Source: a virus (Duplodnaviria > Heunggongvirae > Uroviricota > Caudoviricetes). Taken from it: 10,252 nt of DNA. The notes beneath the pieces were generated by a model, which had not been told where the DNA came from, did no database searches, and saw only the letters and a list, made by a program, of their open reading frames with translations. This document shows positions 1 to 10,252 of the stretch, in pieces; positions within the stretch are counted from its first letter, which is position 1; every line of letters begins with the position of its first letter. The stretch lies in IMG/VR virus record IMGVR_UViG_2778261533_000005, positions 1 through 10,252 of that record; one strand, 5' to 3'. The position numbers and the translations under genes are program-made.

Positions 1-390
1 TTACTCTTTTTTCTCCGTATCTACATCGGGTTCATCAGCAAATAGCTTGCCCTGCATCCGATCCAGTTCTTCTTTTCTTACCCGCTTAACCACGCTGTAG
101 ACCCACTGAAGCGAAACACCAAATTTGCGGGCCAGTTCATGGTGGTTACGTCCGTTAAACCCCCTGAAGATTTCCCGGTCGCGCTGACTGACCTTCCATA
201 CCATGCCCATCGGGAAATAAACGTTTTGCCCGCCCCAGACCTGCATCATGCGGTTCGCGACGGCCTGACCAATCTGGTCGGCAATTGCGGGCTCAATATC
301 AATAATCTCGCGAACGGTCTCAGAGGTATGCTGTGCCAGTTCCACCAGGAGTTCCGGCCCTTTACTTCGAAACTGATTCAGGTCGCTCAT
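1..390 (-). CDS. mor: Mor-family transcriptional activator (Mu middle operon regulator-like), 129 aa, complete
   Basis: ATG at 390..388 and TAA at 3..1. The translation has a GGQNVYFPMG motif and a C-terminal FNGRN..ELARKFGVS...VY..VKR helix-turn-helix-like region, recalled as typical of Mu Mor/C activators. Sits directly downstream of, and overlaps, the gemA-like gene as in Mu. Confidence 0.75.
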   Translation of the reverse strand: MSDLNQFRSKGPELLVELAQHTSETVREIIDIEPAIADQIGQAVANRMMQVWGGQNVYFPMGMVWKVSQRDREIFRGFNGRNHHELARKFGVSLQWVYSVVKRVRKEELDRMQGKLFADEPDVDTEKKE

Positions 391-814
391 GTTTTACTCC
401 CGCAGCTCTGCGTTGCCACTTCTTCAGTTTCTCAATAACACTGCTTGCCTGTTCAGTATTGAGCCAGCGCAGGGCGCTGATGCCCGTTTCCCGCTTGATC
501 CACCGCGCTAATGCATTTTCTGAACGGTCACGAACAATGCCGGCAGCAGCCATTTCAAGCCATAGCGCACGGATTTTCCTGGATTGCGGATGGTTATCCA
601 GCGGTAAACCGGAGCTGGCTTTTCCTGCAGGCCTAACGCGAAAGCCTTTCCTTTTCATGGATTCCAGCACGCAGTTTAGTTGTGTGGTATCCATTCCTTT
701 GGTTGAGGCTTTACCGGTCAGCCCCTGTAACATCTGGCGGTAGGTGTCTTCATCCATACCCAGTTCATTACGGGCAATATGAATGAGCTGGATAAGACGT
801 TGTTTAGTCATCAT
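362..814 (-). CDS. gemA: GemA-like regulatory protein (Mu gp16 / DUF1018 family)
   Basis: ORF track gives 362..853. I prefer the tandem ATG ATG at 814..809 because a GAAGGAG Shine-Dalgarno lies about 6 nt upstream and the start overlaps the stop of the upstream small ORF. N-terminal LIQLIHIARNELGMDEDTYRQML..TGK...M....L..VLE.MKRKGF matches the pattern I recall for Mu GemA. Its 3' end overlaps the mor start. Confidence 0.75.
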   Translation of the reverse strand: MMTKQRLIQLIHIARNELGMDEDTYRQMLQGLTGKASTKGMDTTQLNCVLESMKRKGFRVRPAGKASSGLPLDNHPQSRKIRALWLEMAAAGIVRDRSENALARWIKRETGISALRWLNTEQASSVIEKLKKWQRRAAGVKHERPESVSK

Positions 815-1019
815 CGTTGCTCCTTCTGCCTGCATCACCGATATAATCGACATATAAAGGAAGTGCCACAGGCCAGCACAGGAACATCACTGACCAGCTA
901 ATCCAGTAACCGGCACCACTGTAACGTGAATAAAACCCTGAACGGCGGTGCAGTTCAGCAGTACACCAACCGACAAAACAATACCAGAACAGGGCACATA
1001 CAACAGATTCAGTCGTCAT
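804..1019 (-). CDS. small hypothetical membrane protein (about 71 aa, two hydrophobic segments), acidic C-terminus
   Basis: ATG at 1019..1017 inside the longer ORF-track frame 804..1175. Translation MTTESVVCALFWYCFVGWCTAEL...YWISWSVMFLCWPVALPLYV has two predicted hydrophobic helices. Stop TAA at 806..804 overlaps the gemA start codons (ATGATGACTAA). Start choice is uncertain. Confidence 0.4.
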   Translation of the reverse strand: MTTESVVCALFWYCFVGWCTAELHRRSGFYSRYSGAGYWISWSVMFLCWPVALPLYVDYIGDAGRRSNDDD

Positions 1020-1239
1020 TCTGAATATCCCCCCAACTGATATGAATATTACGGGCAGCAATGACAGGGTCTTTATTCCACCATGCACCTGACATGTATT
1101 TTTCAACCTGTTCGCGTCCGGCAATAACACCAATTGTGATCCCCGGCCTGACGTTCTTAAAAAAGGCGCGGGCAAAAAGGTATCTGGCAGATATTCGGCA
1201 GGCTTTTAATTTCCGGCTGTTACCTGATAACGTAATCAT
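1009..1239 (-). CDS. hypothetical small phage protein (76 aa)
   Basis: ATG at 1239..1237 overlaps the stop of the upstream 119-aa ORF (ATGA), and its TGA at 1011..1009 lies 8 nt inside the next ORF. Operon-style coupling is the only support; no family recognised. Confidence 0.4.
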   Translation of the reverse strand: MITLSGNSRKLKACRISARYLFARAFFKNVRPGITIGVIAGREQVEKYMSGAWWNKDPVIAARNIHISWGDIQNDD

Positions 1240-1595
1240 CTGGCCTCCAGTTTCTGCTGTTCCCGCCCACTGACCGGTCGGTGCAGTCTGACGTTCTGCC
1301 CTTCTCGAAACCCCGCATAGCGCGAGGCGTCGCCATTGCGGCTTCTTCCCGGTTTACGCGCCCTGGTGGTTTGCGTCTGCGGGTATTTATGTTCCAGCCA
1401 CTGCTGCATCAGTTCACGTTCGTCATCGGTCAGGGCGAAGGACTGTATTTCACTGATAACGGCCAGCACCCAGCCTTCAGCAAACTGGTCTCCACGGCTG
1501 GTGCGGGTGGTGGTTTTTATTCTTTTGTTCTGTGCACTGATATACTGCTGACGCGCCTTTTTCAGCTGCCGGAGCTGTATCGGGTGCTGTTCCAT
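1236..1595 (-). CDS. hypothetical phage early-region protein (119 aa), first gene of the minus-strand operon in this window
   Basis: ATG at 1595..1593 and TGA at 1238..1236 overlapping the next start. The translation is basic and helical-looking with no low-complexity runs. No family recognised. Confidence 0.45.
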   Translation of the reverse strand: MEQHPIQLRQLKKARQQYISAQNKRIKTTTRTSRGDQFAEGWVLAVISEIQSFALTDDERELMQQWLEHKYPQTQTTRARKPGRSRNGDASRYAGFREGQNVRLHRPVSGREQQKLEAR

Positions 1596-1724
1596 CGCCT
1601 TCCGGGGTGGCGCAGTTCGTCCGTAACGGCGTCAACTATGCGAAACAGGCGCAGTCTGTACTCCAGACCACTATCAGTGCCGTTCGGGTGGCGCAGAAAA
1701 TGAAGGGTAACCGGCGTCAGCGAT

Positions 1725-2822
1725 GTGCTGACGCCGGTATTCACTCTGTGGTATCTGCAGAAAAACATCACCTCTGATATCGCGCCTTATGTCACCCGTG
1801 TGGTCTGGAGCGATAACATCAAAAATGAGTCCGATACCATTGAGGTGGAGCTGGACGACACCGATGGCCGCTGGCTGGATAAGTGGTATCCGGGCAAGGG
1901 TGACACGCTGACGCTGAAAATGGGTTATCAGGGCGAGAAACTGCTGTCCTGCGGTACATTCTCAATAGACGAGATCGAAGTGAGTTCGCCCGCGTCCGTT
2001 GTCGCTATCCGTGGGGTGGCCACCTCGGTTAACAGTGCTCTGCGGACTAAATCCAGCCGTGGTTTTGAGAACACCACGCTGGCAGCTGTTGCGGGGCGGA
2101 TTGCCAGAAAGCACCGGCTGAAACTGGTGGGCAGCATTGAGTCCATCAGAATCGACCGGGTGACCCAGTATGCTGAAACCGACGTGGGTTTTCTGCGCCG
2201 GCTGGCCAGCGAGTATGGTTATGCAGTGAAAGTGGTCAGTGACCAGTTGATTTTTTCTCATCTGGCCACACTGCGCAGTCAGGAGCCGGTCAGGCAGTTA
2301 AAACCGCAGGATGTGGCCTGCTTTTCCCTGCGTGACACCATCAACCGGGTCTATAAATCTGCAAAGGTAAAACACCAGAAAAGCAGCAGTAAAAAACTGA
2401 TCGTCTACGAAGCTGATGGTGGTACCCGTGAAAGCGACAAAAAGCTCAAAGGCGGTAAGGTTACCAGCGCTGACTCACTTAAAGTTAACAGCCGCGTCAG
2501 CGACCCGGACAGTGCCCGGATTAAAGCGGATTCAGCACTGGCCAGACATAACGAATACCAGCAGAACGGCTCCCTGACGCTGACGGGAACGCCTCAACTG
2601 ACAGCAGGCAACAAAATTGAACTGGTGGGCTTTGGACAGTTATCCGGTCCATGGCTGATAATCACTGCCCGCCATGCGTTTGAGCGTAACAGCGGCTACA
2701 CCACAGAGCTGGAAGTGGCACGGGGGCCAGTCACAAGAGGGAAAAAACAAAAAACTCAGAAACTCACGGTTTATCACCCGGATGGCAGTACATCGACGGT
2801 GATTAAGGAGAAGAAAAAATGA
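1725..2822 (+). CDS. baseplate hub protein (P2 gpD / Mu gp44-like, 'late control D' family); start uncertain, possibly 5'-truncated
   Basis: 365-aa ORF whose first in-frame start is GTG at 1725. It contains an ELDDTDG motif and the overall length expected of P2 gpD-type hubs. Its TGA at 2820..2822 overlaps the gpV ATG (ATGA). The nearest in-frame upstream stop is at 1701..1703. Confidence 0.7.
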   Translation: MLTPVFTLWYLQKNITSDIAPYVTRVVWSDNIKNESDTIEVELDDTDGRWLDKWYPGKGDTLTLKMGYQGEKLLSCGTFSIDEIEVSSPASVVAIRGVATSVNSALRTKSSRGFENTTLAAVAGRIARKHRLKLVGSIESIRIDRVTQYAETDVGFLRRLASEYGYAVKVVSDQLIFSHLATLRSQEPVRQLKPQDVACFSLRDTINRVYKSAKVKHQKSSSKKLIVYEADGGTRESDKKLKGGKVTSADSLKVNSRVSDPDSARIKADSALARHNEYQQNGSLTLTGTPQLTAGNKIELVGFGQLSGPWLIITARHAFERNSGYTTELEVARGPVTRGKKQKTQKLTVYHPDGSTSTVIKEKKK

Positions 2823-3346
2823 CTGGTGTCACCCGTCAGATCGGTACGGTCAGTGCCGTTGATGCCGACAGGGTTCAGGCCCGCGTTCGTCTGCCTGAAT
2901 GCGATAATCTGCGCACAAACTGGCTTAACGTGCTACAGCGCAATACCCAGGATAACAAGGATTACTGGCTCCCTGACGTGGGGGAGCAGGTTGAGGTGCT
3001 GCTCGATGCCAACGGCGAGGATGGTGTTATTCTGGGCGCGGTGTACTCAGACGTCGATAAACCGCCGTTCAGTGATAAAAACGTCCGGGGTACGAAATAC
3101 GCTGATGGCGCGGAGTTCAGTTATAACCGCGCGACCCATACGCTGACGGTCAGAGGAGGTATTGAGCGTATCGTGGTGGAGGTTGCCGCTGATATCTCTC
3201 TCAAAGGGAAAAACCTCGACCTCACGGGAGTTACCACGATCAACGGCCCCGCGACACTCAATGGTGATCTGGAAATCAACGGAAGCGCCCATGCAACGGG
3301 TAACATATTTGCTGATGGTCAGAACTCTAATCACCATTCCCATTGA
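2819..3346 (+). CDS. baseplate spike / assembly protein V (P2 gpV, Mu gp45-like)
   Basis: ATG at 2819 preceded by AAGGAG at 2805..2810. 175 aa with an N-terminal OB-fold-like region and a C-terminal repetitive beta-rich region (TLTV..., LDLTGVTTINGPATLNGDLEINGSAHATGNI) typical of gpV spikes. Position between hub and gpW fits. Confidence 0.85.
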   Translation: MTGVTRQIGTVSAVDADRVQARVRLPECDNLRTNWLNVLQRNTQDNKDYWLPDVGEQVEVLLDANGEDGVILGAVYSDVDKPPFSDKNVRGTKYADGAEFSYNRATHTLTVRGGIERIVVEVAADISLKGKNLDLTGVTTINGPATLNGDLEINGSAHATGNIFADGQNSNHHSH

Positions 3347-3402
3347 ACCTTCTTAAACGCCTTTAATATCGGCGCTTACTTCCCGGGGGCAATACTGCCT
3401 CC

Positions 3403-3750
3403 ATGAAAACGACCTCAGTATTCTGGCAACCAGCTCTGCAGGCTCCCGGCGAAATCGTCCGGGGGCTGGATGATATCCGGCAGTCCATCCAGATCATCCT
3501 GCGGACTCCCCGCGGCAGCGACCCGCATCGCCCGGAGTTCGGCAGCAATCTGCACCTTTATATCGACTGGCCTGTCGACCGGGCCATTCCGCATGTGGTT
3601 CGCGAATCCGTCGATGCCATCAGGCGCTGGGAACCCCGCTGCCAGCTTATGTCGGTTAAACCCGCCGTCGACGGCGAACATCTTACGCTCCGGGTGAGCT
3701 GGAAAGGCTCAGACGGACAACCCCGTACTCAGGAACTGCTATGGCGCTGA
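3403..3750 (+). CDS. baseplate wedge protein W (P2 gpW / T4 gp25-like)
   Basis: ATG at 3403. 115 aa, the size and position expected for gpW/gp25 family, with the IRQSIQIIL.T..G....P.FGS.L motif characteristic of that fold. Stop TGA 3748..3750 overlaps the gpJ start. Confidence 0.85.
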   Translation: MKTTSVFWQPALQAPGEIVRGLDDIRQSIQIILRTPRGSDPHRPEFGSNLHLYIDWPVDRAIPHVVRESVDAIRRWEPRCQLMSVKPAVDGEHLTLRVSWKGSDGQPRTQELLWR

Positions 3751-4844
3751 CAGAACCCGATTTTATTGAACGCGATGCCGATAAAATCACGGCAGAAATG
3801 ATTGCGAAGTATGAAGCGGATACCGGAAAAACGCTGTACCCGGCACAGGCTGAACGTCTGCTGATTGACCTGTGGGCCTATCGCGAAATGCTGGTCAGGG
3901 TGGCAGTACAGGAGGCGGCGAAGCAGAATCTGGTCGCTTTTTCCCGTGAGCCGATGATTGATTACCTCGGTGAACTGGTCGGTGTATACCGCCTTGCCGC
4001 GCAGCCTGCCACCACCACACTTCAGTTCTCTGTGGATGAGGCACTGGCCATTGATGTGCTGATCCCGGCAGGCACCCGCGTCAGCGCTTCCGACAGTATT
4101 ATTTTTGCCACCGATACAGACGTGGTGCTGAAGGCCGGATTGCTGCTGGTCAATGTCACGGCCACCTGTACCGAGCCGGGTACCGCTGGCAACGGCTGGC
4201 AACCGGCGCAGGTCAGTCAGTTACTCGATGAGATTGATAACATTGACCTGCTGGTGACCAATCTGACGGCCAGCTCTGGCGGTTCAGAGCAGGAAGACGA
4301 TGACCGGCTCCGGGAGCGTATCAGGCTGGCCCCGGAGTCATTCACCAATGCCGGAAGCCGTGGTGCATACCGTTTTCATGCTATGGGGGCGCATCCCGGC
4401 ATTGTCGACGTTGCTGTTCTTTCTCCCGTTCCCGGCACTGTCGAGCTGTATCCGCTGCTCAGCACTGGTCTGCCGGACAGCAGTATCCTCACTCTGGTAG
4501 AGAGTTTCTGTTCTGACGAAAAAGTCAGACCACTCACTGATACCGTGCGGGCTAAAACACCTGTTCAGGTGGATTACACCATTGAAGCCAGGATTACGAT
4601 CTATCGTGATCAGGATGCAAGGTTGGTAAAGGACAACGCTAACAGCGCCATACAGAACTGGGTGGCATCCCGTACCGCCACGCTGGGGCGCGATATTGTT
4701 CCCAGCCAGATTATCAGCGTGTTGTCCGTTTCCGGGGTGTACCAGGTCGAACTGGTGACACCGGCACTGAGGGTGGTGGCAGAAAACGAATGGGCAAACT
4801 GTACGGCGATCACTCTTAACATGACCGGGGTGTCCGATGGCTGA
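3741..4844 (+). CDS. baseplate protein J (P2 gpJ / Mu gp47 / T4 gp6-like)
   Basis: ATG at 3741 with AGGAA upstream. 367 aa, located between gpW and gpI; the sequence character is typical of Baseplate_J family. Stop overlaps the gpI ATG at 4837. Confidence 0.85.
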   Translation: MALTEPDFIERDADKITAEMIAKYEADTGKTLYPAQAERLLIDLWAYREMLVRVAVQEAAKQNLVAFSREPMIDYLGELVGVYRLAAQPATTTLQFSVDEALAIDVLIPAGTRVSASDSIIFATDTDVVLKAGLLLVNVTATCTEPGTAGNGWQPAQVSQLLDEIDNIDLLVTNLTASSGGSEQEDDDRLRERIRLAPESFTNAGSRGAYRFHAMGAHPGIVDVAVLSPVPGTVELYPLLSTGLPDSSILTLVESFCSDEKVRPLTDTVRAKTPVQVDYTIEARITIYRDQDARLVKDNANSAIQNWVASRTATLGRDIVPSQIISVLSVSGVYQVELVTPALRVVAENEWANCTAITLNMTGVSDG

Positions 4845-5415
4845 GGTGCTACAACTCCCGCCACCGCTTGAGGGTGATATCAGTCTCAGAACGCTGGGAA
4901 GACTGGCCGGACGGCTGGATAACATCGACCTGAGCGTACTGATGGTCGGTCTCGTCGATATTGTCGACAGTTCCGCGCTGCCATGGCTTGGCGAGCAGTT
5001 CTCGCTGTTCGGCGATGGCTGGGAACTGGCGGAATCGGACGATGTACGCCGCATGCTTATCAAATCCGCTATCGAGCTACACCGCTATAAAGGAACACCG
5101 TGGTCAATCCGGGAAATTATCCGCCGTTTTGGCTTCGGCGAAGTGGATCTGATTGAAGGTACGGGGCAGATTGGCTATGACGGCAGACACACGTACAACG
5201 GGCTTTTCGTCCATGGTGATGCACAAGCCTGGGCAGTCTATCGCGTCATCCTTCAACAACCCATCACTAACGATCAGGCGGCGCTGTTACGTCAGACGCT
5301 TGCTGCCTTTGCTCCGGCTCGCTGTCATCTGGCAAGTCTGGAATATCAGTCTGTCGCCATTCGATACAACAGTACTACCCGTTATGACGGTAGTTACAAC
5401 CACGGGAGCAGTTAA
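4837..5415 (+). CDS. tail/baseplate protein I (P2 gpI / Mu gp48-like, e14 YmfQ-like)
   Basis: ATG at 4837 overlapping the gpJ stop. 192 aa, immediately upstream of the tail-fibre gene as gpI is in P2 and Mu. Confidence 0.8.
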   Translation: MAEVLQLPPPLEGDISLRTLGRLAGRLDNIDLSVLMVGLVDIVDSSALPWLGEQFSLFGDGWELAESDDVRRMLIKSAIELHRYKGTPWSIREIIRRFGFGEVDLIEGTGQIGYDGRHTYNGLFVHGDAQAWAVYRVILQQPITNDQAALLRQTLAAFAPARCHLASLEYQSVAIRYNSTTRYDGSYNHGSS

Positions 5416-5417
5416 TT

Positions 5418-6371
5418 ATGGCAAATCTACCCGAAACCCCGCAGTGGGAAAGCGGCATCTACCAGATTGAGGTCTCTGACCCCGTTCTGGGCGGACCTGA
5501 CGGAATTTCTAACCGCCAGGCTAAACAACTGGCCAGCCGAACGTCATACCTCAAACAGAAGGTCGAAAAAAGCGGAACAGACCTGGCTGCACATATCGCG
5601 GCAGTTGACCCGCATACCCAGTACGCGACGAAAGCCAGTCCGACATTCACCGGCACACCAACAGCACCTACACCTGCAAATGGTGATAACAGCAAAAAGC
5701 TGGCGACGACGGAGTTTGTGGCCAAAGCACTTGCGGCACTTGCAGGCAGCGCCCCTGAGACACTGGATACGCTTAAAGAGCTGGCTGACGCTCTCGGTAA
5801 TGATCCAAACTTTGCGACTACGGTACTGAACAAGCTGGCGGAAAAGCTGGCTAAAGACCAGAACGGCGCAGATATTCCTGAGCCTGCGCTGTTTGTCAAA
5901 AACCTTGGTTTGGGGGAAGGCTCTGCACTACCTGTTGGTGTGCCTGTTCCATGGCCGTCAGCCACACCGCCAACAGGGTGGCTGAAATGTAACGGTGCAG
6001 CATTTTCTTCTGAAATGTACCCCAATCTGGCAAAGGCTTACCCCACGAATAAATTACCGGATTTACGGGGCGAATTTATCCGTGGCTGGGATGACGGACG
6101 AGGTATTGATGCAGGACGAGAGATACTTTCATTTCAGGAAGGCACTATCGTCTCCGGTTTTGATGATAATGATACTGGGGATATCAGTTCACTTAGCTCA
6201 ACACAATACGGATTTGGTGACACTCTAACCTCTAATCAATGGGGGGCCATAAATGGCAAAAAGTGGATATTTGATGCATCCAGTAAAGGTGCACAAAAAT
6301 ATGACTGGTGGGCTTATGTATCAGCTCGTCCGCGTAATATTGCATTTAATTACATCGTAAGAGCGGCATAG
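5418..6371 (+). CDS. tail fibre protein: constant N-terminal part (about residues 1-163) fused to the currently expressed variable C-terminal cassette 1
   Basis: ATG at 5418 with GGGAG at 5404..5408. The N-terminal region contains the side-tail-fibre motif SPTFTGTPTAPTP...ATTEFV...LDTLKELADALGNDPNF. The C-terminal region from about residue 164 is a tail-collar-type domain (PVGVPVPWP....GWLKCNGAAFS...YP.L...LPDLRGEFIRGWD) ending in ARPRNIAFNYIVRAA. The crossover site lies in-frame at 5893..5918. Confidence 0.9.
   Translation: MANLPETPQWESGIYQIEVSDPVLGGPDGISNRQAKQLASRTSYLKQKVEKSGTDLAAHIAAVDPHTQYATKASPTFTGTPTAPTPANGDNSKKLATTEFVAKALAALAGSAPETLDTLKELADALGNDPNFATTVLNKLAEKLAKDQNGADIPEPALFVKNLGLGEGSALPVGVPVPWPSATPPTGWLKCNGAAFSSEMYPNLAKAYPTNKLPDLRGEFIRGWDDGRGIDAGREILSFQEGTIVSGFDDNDTGDISSLSSTQYGFGDTLTSNQWGAINGKKWIFDASSKGAQKYDWWAYVSARPRNIAFNYIVRAA
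5893..5918 (+). other. 26-bp recombination crossover site 1 (gix/hix/pix-like), at the constant/variable boundary of the expressed fibre gene
   Basis: TTGTCAAAAACC-TT-GGTTTGGGGGAA: two 12-bp half-sites matching 8 of 12 positions as an inverted repeat around a TT core. The left half closely resembles the TT.TC.AAAACC left half I recall for Hin/Gin sites. The 14 bp from the core onward recur at the 5' end of every cassette. Confidence 0.7.
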
Positions 6372-6390
6372 AAACGTTGGTTTGGGGGAA
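6365..6390 (+). other. crossover site 2 (direct orientation), 5' end of cassette 2
   Basis: GGCATAGAAACG-TT-GGTTTGGGGGAA. The right half and TT core are identical to site 1. The left half is supplied by the conserved 3' end of cassette 1 and contains its TAG stop. Confidence 0.65.
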
Positions 6391-6915
6391 GGCTCGGCGC
6401 TGCCCGTTGGTGTCCCCGTTCCGTGGCCCTCAGCCACACTGCCAGCAGGGTGGCTGAAATGTAACGGCGCAGCATTTTCTTCTGAAATGTACCCCAATCT
6501 GGCAAAGGCTTATCCTACAAATAAACTACCGGATCTACGGGGTGAGTTTATCCGTGGCTGGGATGACGGACGTGGCGTGGATGCGGGGCGAGCCTTGCTA
6601 AGTCTTCAGGATGACTCTTTTGAAGCGCACAGGCATGAGTCATTTTTTTATGCGGGTATTTCACGCAATGAAATCCCATTAAAAAATCTTCCAAGTTCAG
6701 ACGAGATGCTGACTTTAAGTTCCACAACTAATGCCTTGTCACCGGACGGTATTGATGCCACCAATTCGTTAATTGGTAATGACGATTACAACTGTCTTAT
6801 CGAAGGGAATAAAAATAACAAACGAACAGCAACGGGTCTAAGTACCAGTATTGTCGGCGCAGCAGAAACCCGCCCCCGTAACATTGCGTTTAATTACATC
6901 GTAAGGGCGGCATAG
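6382..6915 (+). CDS. silent alternative tail-fibre C-terminal cassette 2 (collar-type domain, no own start or RBS)
   Basis: The frame is open from the crossover core (6379) to TAG at 6913..6915. The track's M is the TTG inside the site. The N-terminal 70 aa are near-identical to cassette 1, followed by a unique about 90-aa core and the conserved ETRPRNIAFNYIVRAA end. It would be in frame with the constant region if joined at the core. Confidence 0.75.
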   Translation: MGEGSALPVGVPVPWPSATLPAGWLKCNGAAFSSEMYPNLAKAYPTNKLPDLRGEFIRGWDDGRGVDAGRALLSLQDDSFEAHRHESFFYAGISRNEIPLKNLPSSDEMLTLSSTTNALSPDGIDATNSLIGNDDYNCLIEGNKNNKRTATGLSTSIVGAAETRPRNIAFNYIVRAA

Positions 6916-6934
6916 AAACGTTGGTTTGGGGGAA
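6909..6934 (+). other. crossover site 3 (direct orientation), 5' end of cassette 3
   Basis: GGCATAGAAACG-TT-GGTTTGGGGGAA, identical to site 2. Confidence 0.65.
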
Positions 6935-7393
6935 GGCTCGGCGCTGCCCGTTGGTGTGCCTGTTCCGTGGCCCTCAGCCACACCACCAACGGGCTGGCTG
7001 AAATGTAACGGTGCAGCATTTTCTTCTGAAATGTATCCCAAACTGGCAAAAGCTTACCCCACCAATAAATTACCGGATTTACGGGGTGAATTTATTCGTG
7101 GCTGGGATGATGGGCGGGGAATTGATAATAGACGCAACCTACTGTCTGCACAGTCTGACACTATTCAGAATATAGTTGGCACTTTTGGACGAACTCAGCT
7201 TTTTAAAGATGCTTTAAATTCAGGGCCATTTAGTCAAACTGACTCTATATTATCAGTAGGCTTGCAACCAACTGAGAGTATTGAAGGATATGGCGCCTCT
7301 GTATGGACATTCGACGCCTCTCGCTCAGTTCGCACAGCATCTGAAACACGTCCTCGTAACATTGCGTTTAATTACATCGTAAGGGCGGCATAG
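6926..7393 (+). CDS. silent alternative tail-fibre C-terminal cassette 3
   Basis: Same architecture: conserved collar N-terminus, unique core, ETRPRNIAFNYIVRAA, TAG at 7391..7393. No ATG or Shine-Dalgarno. Confidence 0.75.
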   Translation: MGEGSALPVGVPVPWPSATPPTGWLKCNGAAFSSEMYPKLAKAYPTNKLPDLRGEFIRGWDDGRGIDNRRNLLSAQSDTIQNIVGTFGRTQLFKDALNSGPFSQTDSILSVGLQPTESIEGYGASVWTFDASRSVRTASETRPRNIAFNYIVRAA

Positions 7394-7412
7394 AAACGTT
7401 GGTTTGGGGGAA
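7387..7412 (+). other. crossover site 4 (direct orientation), 5' end of cassette 4
   Basis: GGCATAGAAACG-TT-GGTTTGGGGGAA. Confidence 0.65.
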
Positions 7413-7994
7413 GGCTCTGCACTGCCTGTTGGTGTGCCTGTTCCATGGCCGTCAGCCACACCGCCAGAGGGATGGCTGAAATGCAACGGCGCAGCATTTT
7501 CTTCTGAAATGTACCCCAATCTGGCACAGGCTTACCCCACGAATAAATTACCGGATTTACGCGGTGAATTTATCCGTGGCTGGGATGACGGACGTGGCGT
7601 GGATGCGTGGCGAACATTACTGAGTGCTCAGGATTTTGCGTTTGAAGATCATGCTCTGGGGCTACCTACCAATCAGGGATATGCAGGTATTGAGAAAGGT
7701 AGCACTGAAAATGATGTTTATGCCGCTTTCTCTGATGGCATGCACTATACAGGGAATGTAACCAGTAGCGGTCAATGGGATGATTATTCTCAGTCAAAAA
7801 TTTATATCCGTAGTGATGGTAAGCCTGTCGGAAATAATATTGAGTTAGCTAACTCAAGTGAGGCTTTGCGTTCTTCTTTGCGTACTTATAGAGCCAGTAC
7901 AGGATGGTATAACCCAGGACTAAACAAACCTAAAACAGCTACAGAAACACGTCCGCGCAACGTTGCTTTTAATTACATCGTAAGAGCCGCATGA
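7404..7994 (+). CDS. silent alternative tail-fibre C-terminal cassette 4 (largest, 196 codons)
   Basis: Conserved collar N-terminus, unique about 115-aa core, ETRPRNVAFNYIVRAA, TGA at 7992..7994. Confidence 0.75.
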   Translation: MGEGSALPVGVPVPWPSATPPEGWLKCNGAAFSSEMYPNLAQAYPTNKLPDLRGEFIRGWDDGRGVDAWRTLLSAQDFAFEDHALGLPTNQGYAGIEKGSTENDVYAAFSDGMHYTGNVTSSGQWDDYSQSKIYIRSDGKPVGNNIELANSSEALRSSLRTYRASTGWYNPGLNKPKTATETRPRNVAFNYIVRAA

Positions 7995-8013
7995 AAACGT
8001 TGGTTTGGGGGAA
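7988..8013 (+). other. crossover site 5 (direct orientation), 5' end of cassette 5
   Basis: CGCATGAAAACG-TT-GGTTTGGGGGAA. The left half is a variant because cassette 4 ends with TGA rather than TAG. Confidence 0.65.
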
Positions 8014-8481
8014 GGCTCTGCACTGCCCGTTGGTGTGCCTGTTCCGTGGCCCTCAGCCACACCGCCAACAGGGTGGCTGAAATGTAACGGTGCAGCATTT
8101 TCTTCTGAAATGTACCCCAAACTGGCAAAGGCTTATCCTACAAATAAACTACCGGATCTACGGGGTGAGTTTATCCGTGGCTGGGATGACGGGCGAGGGA
8201 TTGATGCAGGACGTGCTTTATTAAGCTTTCAAACTGGGATGCTGGAAAAACACCGCCATATTGTTGTAGCTAACGATGGGTATGACACAAAGGATGAATG
8301 GGAGTTGGCCACAATTTTCAAAAAAACATATACACAAGGACGGGGACTTGATGCCACAAGTACAGGCGGGAGTCTGATCCCATCACCGACACTTCATTCA
8401 CGAGGGAGTATTGGTAACACTGGTGGTAGTGAAACTCGCCCCCGCAATATCGCATTTAACTATATCGTGAGGGCGGCTTAA
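8005..8481 (+). CDS. silent alternative tail-fibre C-terminal cassette 5
   Basis: Conserved collar N-terminus, unique core, ETRPRNIAFNYIVRAA, TAA at 8479..8481. No crossover site follows it; the tfa gene converges 6 bp downstream. Confidence 0.75.
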   Translation: MGEGSALPVGVPVPWPSATPPTGWLKCNGAAFSSEMYPKLAKAYPTNKLPDLRGEFIRGWDDGRGIDAGRALLSFQTGMLEKHRHIVVANDGYDTKDEWELATIFKKTYTQGRGLDATSTGGSLIPSPTLHSRGSIGNTGGSETRPRNIAFNYIVRAA

Positions 8482-8487
8482 TTATAC

Positions 8488-9105
8488 TCAACTGGCTGCT
8501 GCCAGAGGCATTTCCGGCCAGTTGATATCCGGTGCAGTGCTGATGTCAGTCGCATTAAGCGTATCTATGAAATCAAGCACGGCGTTTAGTTTTTCCGTCT
8601 CCTGGGGCGTCAATCGGCGTCCGGCTCGTAGTTTGAGATTAATAAGCTCAACAGATGCCATTGCCTGTTCCTCAAGTTGCTGACGATGCGCTCCGGCAGC
8701 TTCCAGTTCTGCTGCGTGCTGTCGTCTCGTATCTGTCACCCAAATCTCACCATCCCAGACATCATAGATAGTAGCTGGCTGTTTCACCGTCGTATCAGGA
8801 GGGTAATCTCCCGGTTGTGTGATTTGCACAGCGTTACCATTCTCTGTGCTGTAAACCGTTTCGCCTCTGTGGTCTGGAACATATTTCCAGATGTTCTGGT
8901 CGGTATCACGACAGACAGCGAAGCCGGGGCGTTTTTCTGGTGGCGCGTCAATGCATGAGTGAGCCGGAATTCCAACACCATAAGCGAGATACTCAACAGT
9001 GGCAGAGAGATATTCACGGTTTTCAGCATCGTAGTTATAAACGGTAATATCGCCTGCAGTTATAGCGATACCATTCTGATCAAGTACTGCAGCAGCATTA
9101 TTCAT
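8488..9105 (-). CDS. tail fibre assembly protein (Tfa / Mu U-like chaperone)
   Basis: ATG at 9105..9103 overlaps the TAA of the inverted cassette (TAATG). 205 aa. The C-terminus DTLNATDISTAPDINWPEMP resembles the D.TSTAQDIEWPALP end I recall for E. coli TfaE-type chaperones. Confidence 0.85.
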   Translation of the reverse strand: MNNAAAVLDQNGIAITAGDITVYNYDAENREYLSATVEYLAYGVGIPAHSCIDAPPEKRPGFAVCRDTDQNIWKYVPDHRGETVYSTENGNAVQITQPGDYPPDTTVKQPATIYDVWDGEIWVTDTRRQHAAELEAAGAHRQQLEEQAMASVELINLKLRAGRRLTPQETEKLNAVLDFIDTLNATDISTAPDINWPEMPLAAAS

Positions 9106-9608
9106 TAAGTAGCCCTTACAATATAGTTAAACGCAATATTACGGGGGCGGTTTTCCGTTCCTGTATTCCCTCCGTTGGCACCTAATCTATAAACACCACG
9201 AGTGCCAATAGCACGTAGTGAAGATGGAACTTTTACACCTGACTCATCTGTTTTAACAATCCCGCCATCACCGTATGTAGCCAGTATACCAGGGTTTGTT
9301 CCTGCACGGGTGTTGTTTGCGGCAAGCCCTTCACCAGTCCATAACTCCATATAATGAATATGATCTATAACCGAATGTGATTGTGCATTAAGCAAGGAAC
9401 GCCCTGAATCAATTCCCCGCCCATCATCCCAGCCACGAATAAACTCACCCCGTAAATCCGGTAATTTATTGGTGGGGTAAGCCTTTGCCAGTTTGGGGTA
9501 CATTTCAGAAGAAAATGCTGCGCCGTTACATTTCAGCCACCCTGTTGGCGGTGTGGCTGAGGGCCACGGAACAGGCACACCAACGGGTAGTGCAGAGCCT
9601 TCCCCCAA
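9105..9608 (-). CDS. silent alternative tail-fibre C-terminal cassette M in inverted orientation, followed by tfa
   Basis: Minus-strand frame open from crossover site M to TAA at 9107..9105. N-terminus near-identical to the other cassettes (GEGSALPVGVPVPWPSATPPTGWLKCNGAAFSSEMYPKLAKAYPTNKLPDLRGEFIRGWDDGRGID), unique core, ends ENRPRNIAFNYIVRAT. No own start codon. Confidence 0.8.
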   Translation of the reverse strand: MGEGSALPVGVPVPWPSATPPTGWLKCNGAAFSSEMYPKLAKAYPTNKLPDLRGEFIRGWDDGRGIDSGRSLLNAQSHSVIDHIHYMELWTGEGLAANNTRAGTNPGILATYGDGGIVKTDESGVKVPSSLRAIGTRGVYRLGANGGNTGTENRPRNIAFNYIVRAT

Positions 9609-9625
9609 ACCAACGTTTTCGTCTT
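9600..9625 (-). other. crossover site M (inverted relative to sites 1-5)
   Basis: Plus strand reads TTCCCCCAAACC-AA-CGTTTTCGTCTT, the reverse complement of AAGACGAAAACG-TT-GGTTTGGGGGAA. It is the only site with its asymmetric core inverted, so it is the only direct inversion partner for site 1 in this configuration. Confidence 0.7.
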
Positions 9626-9679
9626 AACTCCCACCTATACCAGCTATGTATTTTTAACAAAACAAAGAGGATATTTTTC

Positions 9680-10252
9680 ATGCAAATTGGCTACATTCGT
9701 GTGTCAACAAATGACCAGAATACAGATTTACAACGAAACGCACTGAACTGCGCAGGATGTGAACTGATTTTTGAGGATAAAATCAGCGGAACAAAGTCAG
9801 CCCGACCGGGATTGAAAAAGCTGCTCAGAACGTTATCAGAAGGAGATACGCTCGTTGTCTGGAAGCTGGACAGGCTGGGCAGAAGCATGAAACACCTCAT
9901 CACTCTTATTGAGGAACTGCGGGAAAAAGGGGTTAACTTCCGTAGTCTTACAGACAGCATTGATACGTCAACACCCATGGGACGTTTCTTTTTTCACGTC
10001 ATGGGGGCTTTAGCGGAAATGGAGCGTGAATTAATAGTTGAACGAACACTGGCCGGACTTGAAGCAGCACGTGCACAGGGGCGTATTGGTGGACGTCGTC
10101 CGAAACTGACAAAAGAGCAACATGAACAAATAGCAAGGCTGATCAAAAATGGCTATAGCAGGAAACAGTTGGCAATTATTTACGATATCGGTATATCGAC
10201 GATTTATCGTTATCACCCTGTAGAGGAACTTCAAACTCAAGCTGATTTGTAA
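9680..10252 (+). CDS. site-specific DNA invertase, serine recombinase of the Gin/Pin/Cin/Hin family
   Basis: ATG at 9680 with AAGAGGA at 9664..9670. N-terminal IGYIRVSTNDQNTDLQRNAL holds the catalytic-serine motif. Long identical stretches to the Gin/Pin sequences as I recall them (GDTLVVWKLDRLGRSMKHLI, SLTDSIDTS.PMGRFFFHVMGALAEMERELI.ERT.AGL.AAR), plus a C-terminal helix-turn-helix. TAA at 10250..10252. The ORF-track start at 9485 is an upstream in-frame extension, rejected. Confidence 0.95.
   Translation: MQIGYIRVSTNDQNTDLQRNALNCAGCELIFEDKISGTKSARPGLKKLLRTLSEGDTLVVWKLDRLGRSMKHLITLIEELREKGVNFRSLTDSIDTSTPMGRFFFHVMGALAEMERELIVERTLAGLEAARAQGRIGGRRPKLTKEQHEQIARLIKNGYSRKQLAIIYDIGISTIYRYHPVEELQTQADL

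What the first reader, a model, noticed from the sequence alone, without database searches (positions are those of the whole stretch)
6356..6390. Cassette stop codon and conserved C-terminal tail are embedded in the next crossover site
Each tandem cassette ends with the same peptide ETRPRNIAFNYIVRAA, and its last codons plus the stop (GCG GCA TAG AAA CG) form the left half-site of the next site. Recombination signal, reading-frame terminus and the next cassette's entry point overlap within about 30 bp. This explains why both ends of every cassette are conserved while only the middle varies. The conserved C-terminal peptide may also be a functional element of the fibre domain.
Basis: seen in the sequence. 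Interest (0 to 1): 0.5.

Follow-up and report, generated by a model that had tools for sequence, protein, structure and literature searches.

The report
Tail-fibre cassette stops inside inversion sites
This prophage can fuse any of six alternative receptor-binding tips onto its tail-fibre gene by DNA inversion, and each tip's stop codon does sit inside the next 26-bp recombination site; this layout belongs to the known Min (plasmid p15B) type of multiple-inversion system, and the conserved end peptide is kept for protein folding, not for recombination.

Summary
The window holds six 26-bp crossover sites, five direct and one inverted (0 expected by chance). In four of them the left half-site (GGCATAGAAACG or CGCATGAAAACG) contains the last Ala codon and the stop codon of the preceding cassette, 6 nt upstream of the TT core.

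The sites are used in nature:
- Two E. coli loci are exact inversion isomers.
- 20 related loci show 19 arrangements, all obeying one half-site grammar.
- All six in-silico Sc+cassette fusions exist as exact proteins in public genomes.

The recombinase is about 80% identical to Mu Gin and nearly identical to the invertase of P1/p15B-like plasmids, which carry the same junction. A simulation gives 240 isomers, the number published for p15B Min.

The C-terminal peptide lies almost entirely outside the site. It is kept in cassettes E and F, which have no site after them. Synonymous sites there are nearly saturated (pS 0.67, pN 0.02). It matches the C-terminal collar-domain residues of T4 gp37. 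So both cassette ends are conserved because together they form the collar fold. Only xCA-stop-AAACG is tied to the site.

Verdict: a new member of a known kind, of low to moderate interest.

The parts
5418..5904 (+). Constant 5' part (Sc) of the tail-fibre gene, up to the core of site 1
   Evidence: ORF 5418-6371. The Sc part joined in silico to each of the six cassettes gives proteins that exist exactly in public genomes.
5893..5918 (+). Crossover site 1 (TTGTCAAAAACC|TT|GGTTTGGGGGAA), read through in frame (…K N L G L G E G…). Its left half is canonical for the family.
   Evidence: The left half matches the Mu gix left half TTATCCAAAACC at 10 of 12 positions.
5907..6371 (+). Cassette A, currently fused to Sc and therefore expressed
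   Evidence: Pfam Collar domain PF07484, E 4e-14. Alignment A2.
6365..6390 (+). Crossover site 2, the object of the finding. The left half GGCATAGAAACG contains cassette A's last codon GCA (6366-6368) and its stop TAG (6369-6371). Core TT is at 6377-6378.
6379..6915 (+). Cassette B (silent)
   Evidence: Collar domain. The Sc-B fusion (341 aa) is present in 24 public contigs.
6909..6934 (+). Crossover site 3. Cassette B's stop TAG is at 6913-6915.
6923..7393 (+). Cassette C (silent)
   Evidence: Collar domain. The Sc-C fusion (319 aa) is in 17 contigs. C is found in both orientations in relatives.
7387..7412 (+). Crossover site 4. Cassette C's stop TAG is at 7391-7393.
7401..7994 (+). Cassette D (silent)
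   Evidence: Collar domain. The Sc-D fusion (360 aa) is in 12 contigs.
7988..8013 (+). Crossover site 5 (CGCATGAAAACG|TT|…). Cassette D's stop TGA is at 7992-7994.
8002..8481 (+). Cassette E (silent). It ends with the same peptide, but no site follows it.
   Evidence: The Sc-E fusion (322 aa) is in 19 contigs.
8488..9105 (-). Tail-fibre assembly chaperone (tfa). Its ATG overlaps the stop codon of cassette F.
   Evidence: Pfam Caudo_TAP PF02413, E 9e-26. Sequence read.
9105..9611 (-). Cassette F (silent, inverted). Together with tfa and E it forms the one unit that has a cassette entry point at each end.
   Evidence: The Sc-F fusion (331 aa) is in 15 contigs.
9600..9625 (-). Crossover site 6, the only inverted site. 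Its outer half AAGACGAAAACG faces the invertase gene.
9680..10252 (+). Serine DNA invertase of the Gin/Cin/Min family
   Evidence: Pfam Resolvase plus HTH_7. E 4.5e-91 to the Mu Gin structures 4M6F and 3UJ3. Nearly identical to the recombinase of P1-like plasmid L005.
9698..9769 (+). Probable recombinational enhancer. This is inferred only from position: nt 19-90 of the invertase gene, where the enhancer is annotated in P1 cin.
   Evidence: P1 annotation. This stretch is 81% nt identical to cin and 79% to gin. Fis-like motifs here are not statistically meaningful.

Best explanation
The window carries a Min-type (plasmid p15B-like) multiple DNA-inversion system in the tail-fibre gene of a prophage.

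Components and reaction. A Gin/Cin/Min-family serine invertase (9680-10252) recombines pairs of oppositely oriented 26-bp sites at their TT core. Each site has a well-conserved right half (GGTTTGGGGGAA) that is also the first codons of a cassette. Its left half belongs to whatever lies upstream: the constant gene part Sc, the 3' end of the previous cassette, or the flank next to the invertase gene.

Why the stop codon is always kept. Cassettes A-D are head-to-tail units with a right half at the 5' end and a left half at the 3' end. Their last Ala codon and stop codon fill the outer 7 bp of the left half (xCA-TRR), followed by the inner AAAC(G) shared by all sites. The stop lies 6 nt upstream of the exchange point, so a cassette keeps its own terminator in every arrangement. 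The Sc side supplies ...AAC C, and the TT core completes the Leu codon that leads in frame into GLGEGS...

Combinatorics. Four single units plus one double-headed unit (E, tfa, F) give 240 reachable isomers. Each of the six tips can be expressed.

The terminal peptide. RPRNIAFNYIVRA(A) is not a recombination signal. It is the C-terminal part of the tail-collar domain and corresponds to the end of T4 gp37. It works together with the conserved N-terminal 70-75 residues of each cassette, while the variable middle is the presumed receptor-binding part. The overlap of stop and site is best read as tight packing allowed by a degenerate, A-rich left half-site.

Shown here: the sites, their use in nature, the exchange interval, the frame-exact fusions, protein-level selection on the peptide, and its homology to gp37.

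Inferred: the 2-bp staggered exchange at TT, dependence on Fis and an enhancer, the restriction to inversion, and that a recombinase subunit actually contacts the xCA-TRR bases.
For: Sites
- Six sites against 0 expected.

Recombinase
- Pfam Resolvase plus HTH_7.
- E 4.5e-91 to Mu Gin.
- Nearly identical to the recombinase of P1-like plasmids.

Sites compared with known ones
- The right half and s1 match Mu gix and P1 cix.
- They also match the published 26-bp consensus.
- An inversion seen by PacBio in E. coli EC958 prophage Phi2 uses the same GGTTTGGGGGAA half (PMC4134206).

Use in nature
- L001 and L004 become identical, with 0 mismatches over 9.7 kb, once one segment is inverted. One breakpoint is a cassette-end site.
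- 20 independent loci show 19 arrangements. All fit forward units, then the double-headed unit, then reversed units.
- The window's own cassette set appears in 3 arrangements (window, L012, L027).
- A cassette-specific marker at +18 always stays with its cassette, and the left half always stays with the upstream unit. Exchange is therefore confined to about -6 to +17.
- All six Sc+cassette fusions built at the core exist as exact proteins, in 12-38 contigs each.

The same junction elsewhere
- It occurs in P1-like plasmids and P2-like prophages. 26 of 41 unique junctions have a stop at -8 to -6, and TAA, TAG and TGA are all used.

Combinatorics
- A simulation reaches 240 isomers, the number cited for p15B Min (PMC2481393).

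The terminal peptide
- pS 0.67 and pN 0.02 over the last 14 codons.
- It is kept in cassette ends with no site after them.
- It aligns to the gp37 C-terminus and to the C-terminal regions of gp12 and another short tail fibre.
- gp37 collar domain definition.
- 125 of the 150 best representative homologues end with the motif.
- The motif is internal in the in-frame multi-collar protein P0292.

Precedent
- The stop codon of P1 cin lies inside the left half of cixL.
Against: - No experiment on this strain. All evidence of inversion comes from comparing genomes.
- The outer left half of the internal sites matches the family half-site TTATCCAAAACC only at AAAC (4 of 12, counted by eye). It is not shown that the recombinase reads the codon and stop bases.
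- The enhancer is inferred only from position and coding-sequence homology.
- In the window's arrangement tfa is antisense to the fibre operon, and five cassettes have no chaperone gene of their own. This is unexplained.
- The original p15B papers could not be read. Equivalence to p15B rests on P1-like plasmids, on the isomer count and on secondary citations.
- The structure prediction failed, so packing of the C-terminal residues against the collar rests on homology to gp37.
Confidence: 0.87

Rival explanations
1. One reading: the recombination signals are the reason both ends of every cassette are conserved, and the C-terminal peptide is held constant because it overlaps the site.
For: - The 299-nt direct repeat unit runs from about 45 nt before the stop to about 250 nt after it, so the conserved DNA does straddle the site.
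- The last codon is xCA in 42 of 42 unique cassette ends followed by a site. It is more varied (GCT, ACT, GCG, GAT, GTT, GCA) where no site follows.
Against: - Synonymous sites in the last 14 codons are almost saturated (pS 0.67) while pN is 0.02.
- E, F and other ends without a site keep the peptide.
- T4 gp37 and gp12 carry the same C-terminal motif.
- The motif is also internal and not followed by a stop in multi-collar proteins.
- A 26-bp site cannot explain 220-260 nt of 5' conservation.
Confidence: 0.07
2. Only the right half-site and the core matter. The 'left half' at cassette ends is not recognised, and the stop codon simply happens to lie next to the site because the array is tightly packed and was built by duplicating one junction.
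For: - The outer left half shares nothing with the canonical TTATCC or TTCTC motif. Only AAAC is common to all three classes of left half.
- Positions -12, -11, -7 and -6 vary.
- Invariance of CAT could reflect common descent of all junctions.
Against: - From established knowledge of serine invertases (Gin, Hin): a dimer occupies both half-sites and both subunits cleave, so a subunit must sit on these bases.
- The spacing from stop to core is fixed in 26 unique junctions across three phage types, with a single 1-nt exception.
- xCA is invariant with a site but not without one.
- These arguments are suggestive and are not independent of phylogeny.
Confidence: 0.3
3. The rearrangements arise by RecA-dependent homologous recombination between the 220-260-bp inverted repeats (the conserved 5' ends of the cassettes), not by site-specific recombination.
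For: Inverted repeats of 220-259 nt at 84-93% identity are present. They are long enough for homologous recombination.
Against: - At every junction class examined, the cassette marker at +18 stays linked to its cassette whatever the left half. Exchanges therefore fall between -6 and +17 and not along the repeat.
- L001 and L004 map the exchange to a 30-bp interval containing the core.
- A dedicated Gin-like invertase is encoded next to the array.
- No deletions between the five direct repeats are seen in the window.
Confidence: 0.04
4. The tandem cassettes are dead duplicates. Only the outermost pair (s1 and s6) is a working two-state switch of the Mu or P1 kind.
For: Only cassette F has a translationally coupled chaperone gene. 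In simple systems each tip has its own.
Against: - Internal sites are breakpoints in natural isomers.
- All six fusion proteins exist in public genomes.
- All cassettes keep intact reading frames under purifying selection.
Confidence: 0.02

Closest known systems
Min multiple-inversion system of plasmid p15B and P1-like phage-plasmids (Sandmeier et al. 1990-1992; cited in PMC2481393, PMC6109161, PMC4134206)
   Same: - Serine invertase nearly identical to that of P1-like plasmids.
- Six crossover sites and 240 isomers (PMC2481393).
- A constant 5' gene part fused to alternative 3' collar-type tips.
- The same cassette-end junction …NYIVRAA-stop-AAACG|TT|GGTTTGGGGGAA in P1-like plasmids L005, L006 and L023.
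- A single tfa gene inside the array.
   Different: - The host element is a chromosomal prophage with Mu-like regulatory genes and a P2-type baseplate, not a P1-like plasmid.
- The constant part is short (163 aa) and unrelated to that of the P1-like and P2-like elements compared.
- Cassettes are 76-92% identical in nucleotide sequence to the plasmid ones.
- The stop is TAG or TGA here and mostly TAA in the plasmids.
- The p15B sequence itself was not available for direct comparison.
Gin/gix G-segment of phage Mu and Cin/cix C-segment of phage P1
   Same: - Recombinase about 80% identical to Gin.
- Same 12+2+12 site design, with the GGTTT…GAA half on the cassette side and …AAAACC on the constant side.
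- The invertase gene adjoins the segment.
- The enhancer lies in the 5' part of the gene in P1.
- In P1 the cin stop codon TAA lies inside the left half of cixL (CAATCCTAAACC|TT), a direct precedent for a stop codon embedded in a half-site.
   Different: - Mu and P1 have two sites and two states. Each tip has its own chaperone (U, U').
- No cassette ends at a site there, and the tips are not tandem head-to-tail units.
R64-type shufflon (Rci, sfx) and the bifidophage Rin shufflon
   Same: Multiple overlapping inversions assemble one variable 3' end onto a constant 5' gene part. Direct and inverted sites are interleaved (PMC6109161).
   Different: Those systems use tyrosine recombinases and short asymmetric sites. 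Here the recombinase is a serine invertase. This locus is therefore not a member of that family.
Collar domain of the T4 gp37 long-tail-fibre tip (PDB 2XGF) and the T4 gp12 short fibre
   Same: - Cassette residues 5-116 align to 2XGF residues 27-128.
- The last 23 cassette residues align to the last 23 of gp37, which ends …NIAFNYIVRLA.
- The gp37 collar is formed by residues 811-860 plus 1016-1026.
- gp12 ends …ETRPWNISLNYIIK….
   Different: The T4 fibres are single fixed genes with no inversion sites. The middle (needle and head) regions are unrelated in sequence.

Membership tests
Min/Gin/Cin-type serine-invertase DNA inversion system | A small serine recombinase of the DNA-invertase subfamily (resolvase catalytic domain plus C-terminal HTH) encoded next to the invertible DNA | tested here: met
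   Pfam PF00239 (E 1.7e-51) and PF02796. E 4.5e-91 over 185 residues to Mu Gin structures 4M6F and 3UJ3. Nearly identical to the recombinase of P1-like plasmid L005.
Min/Gin/Cin-type serine-invertase DNA inversion system | 26-bp crossover sites: two imperfectly symmetrical 12-bp half-sites around a 2-bp core, matching the family consensus | tested here: met
   All six sites have a TT core and the right half GGTTTGGGGGAA (compare gix GGTTTACAGGAA and cix GGTTTAAGAGAA). The s1 left half matches gix at 10 of 12. The internal left halves keep only the inner AAAC (consensus in PMC4134206).
Min/Gin/Cin-type serine-invertase DNA inversion system | Recombination takes place at those sites and inverts the DNA between oppositely oriented copies | tested here: met
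   Comparative evidence only. Exact isomer pair L001/L004. 19 arrangements in 20 loci, all consistent with inversion between opposed sites. Exchange confined to -6 to +17. Not tested experimentally in this strain.
Min/Gin/Cin-type serine-invertase DNA inversion system | Fis-dependent recombinational enhancer in cis, usually in the 5' part of the invertase gene | tested here: inconclusive
   The stretch homologous to the annotated P1 cin enhancer (nt 19-90) is 81% identical, but it is coding sequence. Degenerate Fis-like motifs are too frequent to be informative.
Min/Gin/Cin-type serine-invertase DNA inversion system | Strong bias for inversion over deletion between directly repeated sites | not testable with these tools
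   Only indirect support: five direct sites persist in the window, and arrays of 2-5 single units persist in relatives.
Min subtype (multiple inversion, p15B-like) | More than two crossover sites forming overlapping invertible segments. Six sites and 240 isomers in p15B. | tested here: met
   Six sites. The simulation reaches exactly 240 states. The figure of 240 for p15B is cited in PMC2481393.
Min subtype (multiple inversion, p15B-like) | Alternative 3' gene parts assembled in frame onto one constant 5' tail-fibre part | tested here: met
   All six Sc+cassette fusions exist as exact full-length proteins.
Phage tail collar domain (PF07484; gp37-type tip) | N-terminal collar segment plus C-terminal residues that complete the same domain, with the variable part in between | tested here: met
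   PF07484 E about 1e-14 in all six cassettes. Both the N- and C-terminal segments align to gp37 2XGF, at the very C-terminus in both proteins. Domain definition from PMC12724248. The three-dimensional packing was not confirmed here because the AF2 model failed.
R64-type shufflon | Tyrosine recombinase (Rci) acting on asymmetric sfx sites | tested here: not met
   The recombinase is a serine invertase. The locus works like a shufflon but is not a member of that family.

The most novel reading that the evidence does not exclude
The unit 'right half-site, collar N-part, variable tip, collar C-strand, stop, left half-site' may be more than an invertible segment. It may be a portable cassette that the invertase itself moves between phage genomes by rare intermolecular exchange, or by deletion and insertion at the sites. 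This would resemble an integron-like shared pool of receptor-binding tips. In that reading the xCA-TRR-AAACG half-site is under a real dual constraint, serving both as codon plus stop and as recombinase contact.

Hints:
- A P2-like prophage (L033) with an unrelated constant part and baseplate carries the window's cassettes, tfa and invertase at 98-100% nucleotide identity. The homology starts exactly at ACC|TT of site 1.
- Cassette number varies from 2 to 5 single units among near-identical prophages, always with boundaries at sites.
- xCA is invariant only where a site follows.
Probability: 0.15. Interest if true: 0.55.

Novelty: new member of a known kind. Interest (0 to 1): 0.27.

Why it matters
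The locus shows compactly how a temperate phage keeps six receptor-binding tips behind one promoter and displays one at a time. The half-site grammar derived here (each junction is a left half plus a right half; four single units plus one double-headed unit give 240 states) predicts every arrangement seen in 20 loci. It could be used to annotate such arrays, which genome pipelines currently label as separate 'phage tail protein' genes starting at a spurious TTG.

The stop codon sits on the cassette side of the exchange point, so every isomer has a properly terminated gene. That is a useful design rule for engineered multi-inversion switches and for swapping host-range modules.

None of this changes current understanding of serine invertases or tail fibres.

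Tried and rejected
- The original p15B papers and the Johnson review (PMC53420, PMC4384473) are not held. Literature searches found no paper that states the stop/half-site overlap explicitly.
- An exact-pattern scan of one genome per species returned only 4 stretches, in Escherichia sp. and one Moraxella contig. It was not useful for surveying diversity.
- AlphaFold2 on the six-cassette alignment gave pLDDT 39.6 and pTM 0.13, which is unusable. No fold search was run. The homologues I was allowed to submit are over 94% identical to cassette B, so a deeper alignment could not be built.
I replaced it with a look-up of the tfa protein.
- The search with the Sc part alone listed mostly other tip types, including gp53-like ones. 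It did not show the collar fusions within its top 120. The exact look-up settled the question instead.
- A degenerate Fis-motif scan of the invertase gene gave 9 matches in 220 nt. I rejected it as uninformative.
- The promoter and terminator scan of the array found fewer matches than in shuffles, so there is no sign of independent expression signals for the silent cassettes.
- Explanations considered and rejected: homologous recombination as the driver, dead duplicate cassettes, and an R64-type (tyrosine recombinase) shufflon. See the rival explanations and the membership test.
Full report
**What is in the window.**
Positions 1725-5415 encode baseplate proteins: a gpD-like hub, gpV, gpW/gp25, gpJ and gpI. 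A tail-fibre gene starts at 5418. Five collar-domain reading frames then follow head to tail on the + strand (ends at 6371, 6915, 7393, 7994 and 8481). Next come a tail-fibre assembly gene (8488-9105) and a sixth collar frame (9105-9611), both on the - strand. A 190-aa serine recombinase gene follows (9680-10252, + strand).

**Checking the observation.**
The motif AAACGTTGGTTTGGGGGAAGG occurs six times, five direct and one inverted. None was found in 200 shuffles.

Written as 12+2+12, all six sites share the core TT and the right half GGTTTGGGGGAA. The left halves fall into three classes:
- TTGTCAAAAACC at the junction with the constant gene part (s1, 5893-5918)
- GGCATAGAAACG (s2-s4) or CGCATGAAAACG (s5) at the 3' end of cassettes A-D
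- AAGACGAAAACG next to the invertase gene (s6, 9600-9625)

In s2-s5 the last sense codon GCA fills positions -11 to -9, and the stop codon fills -8 to -6.

Some details need correcting. The terminal peptide is not identical in all cassettes. D uses TGA. Cassettes E and F end with the same peptide but have no site after them.

**Are these real recombination sites?**
The recombinase has resolvase and HTH_7 domains. It matches Mu Gin at E 4.5e-91. It is nearly identical to the recombinase of P1-like phage-plasmids.

The right half and s1 resemble Mu gix (TTATCCAAAACC|TC|GGTTTACAGGAA) and P1 cix. They also fit the published 26-bp consensus. One inversion observed by PacBio in E. coli EC958 prophage Phi2 uses GAGAGATAAACG|TT|GGTTTGGGGGAA (PMC4134206).

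Direct evidence of use comes from comparing genomes:
- Two E. coli loci from mouse isolates, L001 and L004, become identical over 9.7 kb once the segment between a cassette-end site and the invertase-proximal site is inverted. The breakpoint lies within a 30-bp interval that contains the core.
- Across 20 independent related loci I found 19 different arrangements.
- The window's own six cassettes occur in three orders: window A B C D [E tfa f'], L012 A B [E tfa f'] c' d', and L027 [E tfa f'] a' d' c' b'.
- Cassette-specific markers at +18 always travel with the cassette, and left halves always stay with the upstream unit. All exchanges therefore fall between about -6 and +17.
- I joined the constant part to each cassette at the core in silico. 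All six products exist as exact full-length proteins in public genomes, in 12-38 contigs each.

**How the array works.**
Every junction is a left half plus a right half. Cassettes A-D carry a right half at the 5' end and a left half at the 3' end. The unit E-tfa-F carries a right half at both ends. Sc and the invertase flank each carry a left half.

All 20 loci obey this rule.

A breadth-first simulation allowing only inversions between opposed sites reaches exactly 240 states from the window's arrangement, in at most six steps. That is the number cited for the six-site Min system of p15B (PMC2481393).

The stop codon is 6 nt upstream of the exchange point, so each cassette keeps its terminator in every isomer. 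On the Sc side, C plus the TT core forms the Leu codon that reads into GLGEGS. The upstream cassette's frame and the downstream cassette's frame are offset by one base. The overlap therefore involves two different reading frames plus the recombination signal.

**The same junction elsewhere.**
P1-like plasmids (L005, L006, L023) and P2-like prophages (L021, L022, L033) have the same …NYIVRAA-stop-AAACG|TT|GGTTTGGGGGAA junctions. Of 41 unique junctions, 26 have the stop at -8 to -6. All three stop codons occur. CAT at -10 to -8 and AAAC at -5 to -2 are invariant, and there is one exception shifted by 1 nt.

In P1 itself the stop codon of cin lies inside the left half of cixL (CAATCCTAAACC|TT). 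A stop codon inside a half-site therefore has a precedent in this family.

**Why the ends are conserved.**
The data say otherwise.
- The conserved 5' end spans 220-260 nt, about 72 residues with 66 invariant columns. That is far more than a half-site.
- In the last 14 codons the six cassettes differ at almost every synonymous position (pS 0.67) but hardly at all in amino acids (pN 0.02, ratio 0.03). Excluding the two codons inside the site, pS is 0.69 and pN 0.012.
- The peptide is kept in cassette ends that have no site after them (E, F and others in relatives). There the final codon varies (GCT, ACT, GCG, GAT, GTT, GCA), whereas it is xCA in all 42 unique ends followed by a site.
- The cassette aligns to the T4 gp37 tip (PDB 2XGF) in two pieces: residues 5-116, and the last 23 residues. 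gp37 ends …NIAFNYIVRLA. T4 gp12 and another short fibre show the same C-terminal motif.
- A profile search found 16,572 representative proteins at E ≤ 0.001. Of the best 150, 125 end with the motif.
- One 1271-aa protein (P0292) has several in-frame collar modules, each ending …TRPRNVALLxCIRALP with no stop.

The two conserved ends therefore appear to be the two parts of one fold. This is inferred from homology to gp37, not modelled here. The variable middle is the presumed specificity-determining part. Only xCA-stop-AAACG is associated with the site.

**What remains uncertain.**
The outer left half of the internal sites does not resemble the canonical half-site. Whether the recombinase reads these bases or merely tolerates them is open (rival 2). 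The invariance of CAT and of the spacing is suggestive, but it is not independent of common descent.

The enhancer is inferred only by position. The restriction to inversion and the 2-bp staggered cut are taken from what is established for Gin, Hin and Cin.

The tfa gene is translationally coupled to F only, and in the window's arrangement it is antisense to the fibre operon. How the other five tips fold is not explained.

The structure prediction failed, and the original p15B papers could not be read.

**Verdict.**
The structural reading (stop codon and last codon inside the left half-site of a working crossover site) is right, and the locus is an active multiple-inversion switch. The causal claim about conservation of the ends is wrong.

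The system is a chromosomal-prophage member of the known Min (p15B) type. The same junction is present in P1-like plasmids and P2-like prophages. It is therefore a new member of a known kind, and interest is low to moderate.

The most novel reading still open is that these half-site-bounded cassettes are portable modules exchanged between phage backbones at the sites. The main hint is a P2-like prophage that carries the identical module, with homology beginning exactly at the core of site 1.

Noticed in passing
window 1-1707 (junction at about 1708): The left end of the window carries Mu-type regulatory genes on the minus strand: Mor (1-390), GemA (362-853) and a DUF7168 protein (1236-1595). 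They abut a 5'-truncated gpD hub gene. In relatives (L012) gpD is preceded by the sheath, tube, tape-measure, gpU and gpX genes, and collinearity with the window starts only at 1708. This is a deletion or rearrangement in this prophage, or an assembly chimera.
   Followed up: partly
window 8488-9611 (minus strand), junction at about 9103-9107: The stop codon of cassette F overlaps the ATG of tfa (TAATG), so the only chaperone gene is translationally coupled to F. In the window's arrangement tfa is antisense to the fibre operon. Cassettes A-E have no chaperone gene of their own. P1-like plasmids also have a single tfa in the array.
   Followed up: no
L033 about 3854-7500 compared with window 5905-10252: A P2-like prophage with an unrelated constant fibre part and baseplate carries cassettes A, C, E and F, tfa and the invertase at 98-100% nucleotide identity to the window. 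Homology begins exactly at ACC|TT of site 1. Measured against relative L012 (the window ends at the invertase stop), it ends about 78 nt after that stop. The whole invertible module has been swapped between phage backbones with a breakpoint at the crossover site.
   Followed up: partly
window cassettes: first 72 codons compared with last 14 codons: Synonymous divergence between cassettes is much lower in the 5' collar part (pS 0.31) than in the 3' peptide (pS 0.67). This suggests DNA-level homogenisation (gene conversion or recombination) downstream of the sites.
   Followed up: no
L012-L019 and L025-L034 (flanks): Near-identical prophages sit at many different chromosomal positions (next to bcs, T2SS, che, cob and other genes), with the invertase gene at the prophage end. 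This fits a transposable, Mu-like lifestyle.
   Followed up: no
L006 3044, 5073, 5525 and 6032: One P1-like plasmid has a cassette-end junction with a 1-nt shorter A-run (CGGCATAAAACG|TT), placing the stop at -7 to -5. It also has three sites with degenerate right halves (GGTTTGGGGAAT or GGTTTGGGGAAG) next to shortened cassettes. These look like decaying sites.
   Followed up: no
P0292 (1271 aa) and other long hits: Some proteins contain 3-7 matched collar stretches. P0292 has several in-frame tandem collar modules, each ending with a …TRPRNVALLxCIRALP motif followed by a linker rather than a stop. This is a fixed, concatenated counterpart of the cassette array.
   Followed up: partly
window 6382, 6926, 7404, 8005 (TTG) and annotated relatives: Annotation pipelines call each silent cassette as a separate 'phage tail protein' gene starting at the TTG inside the right half-site (TTG GGG GAA). 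These starts are artefacts of ORF calling. The cassettes are promoterless 3' gene parts.
   Followed up: no
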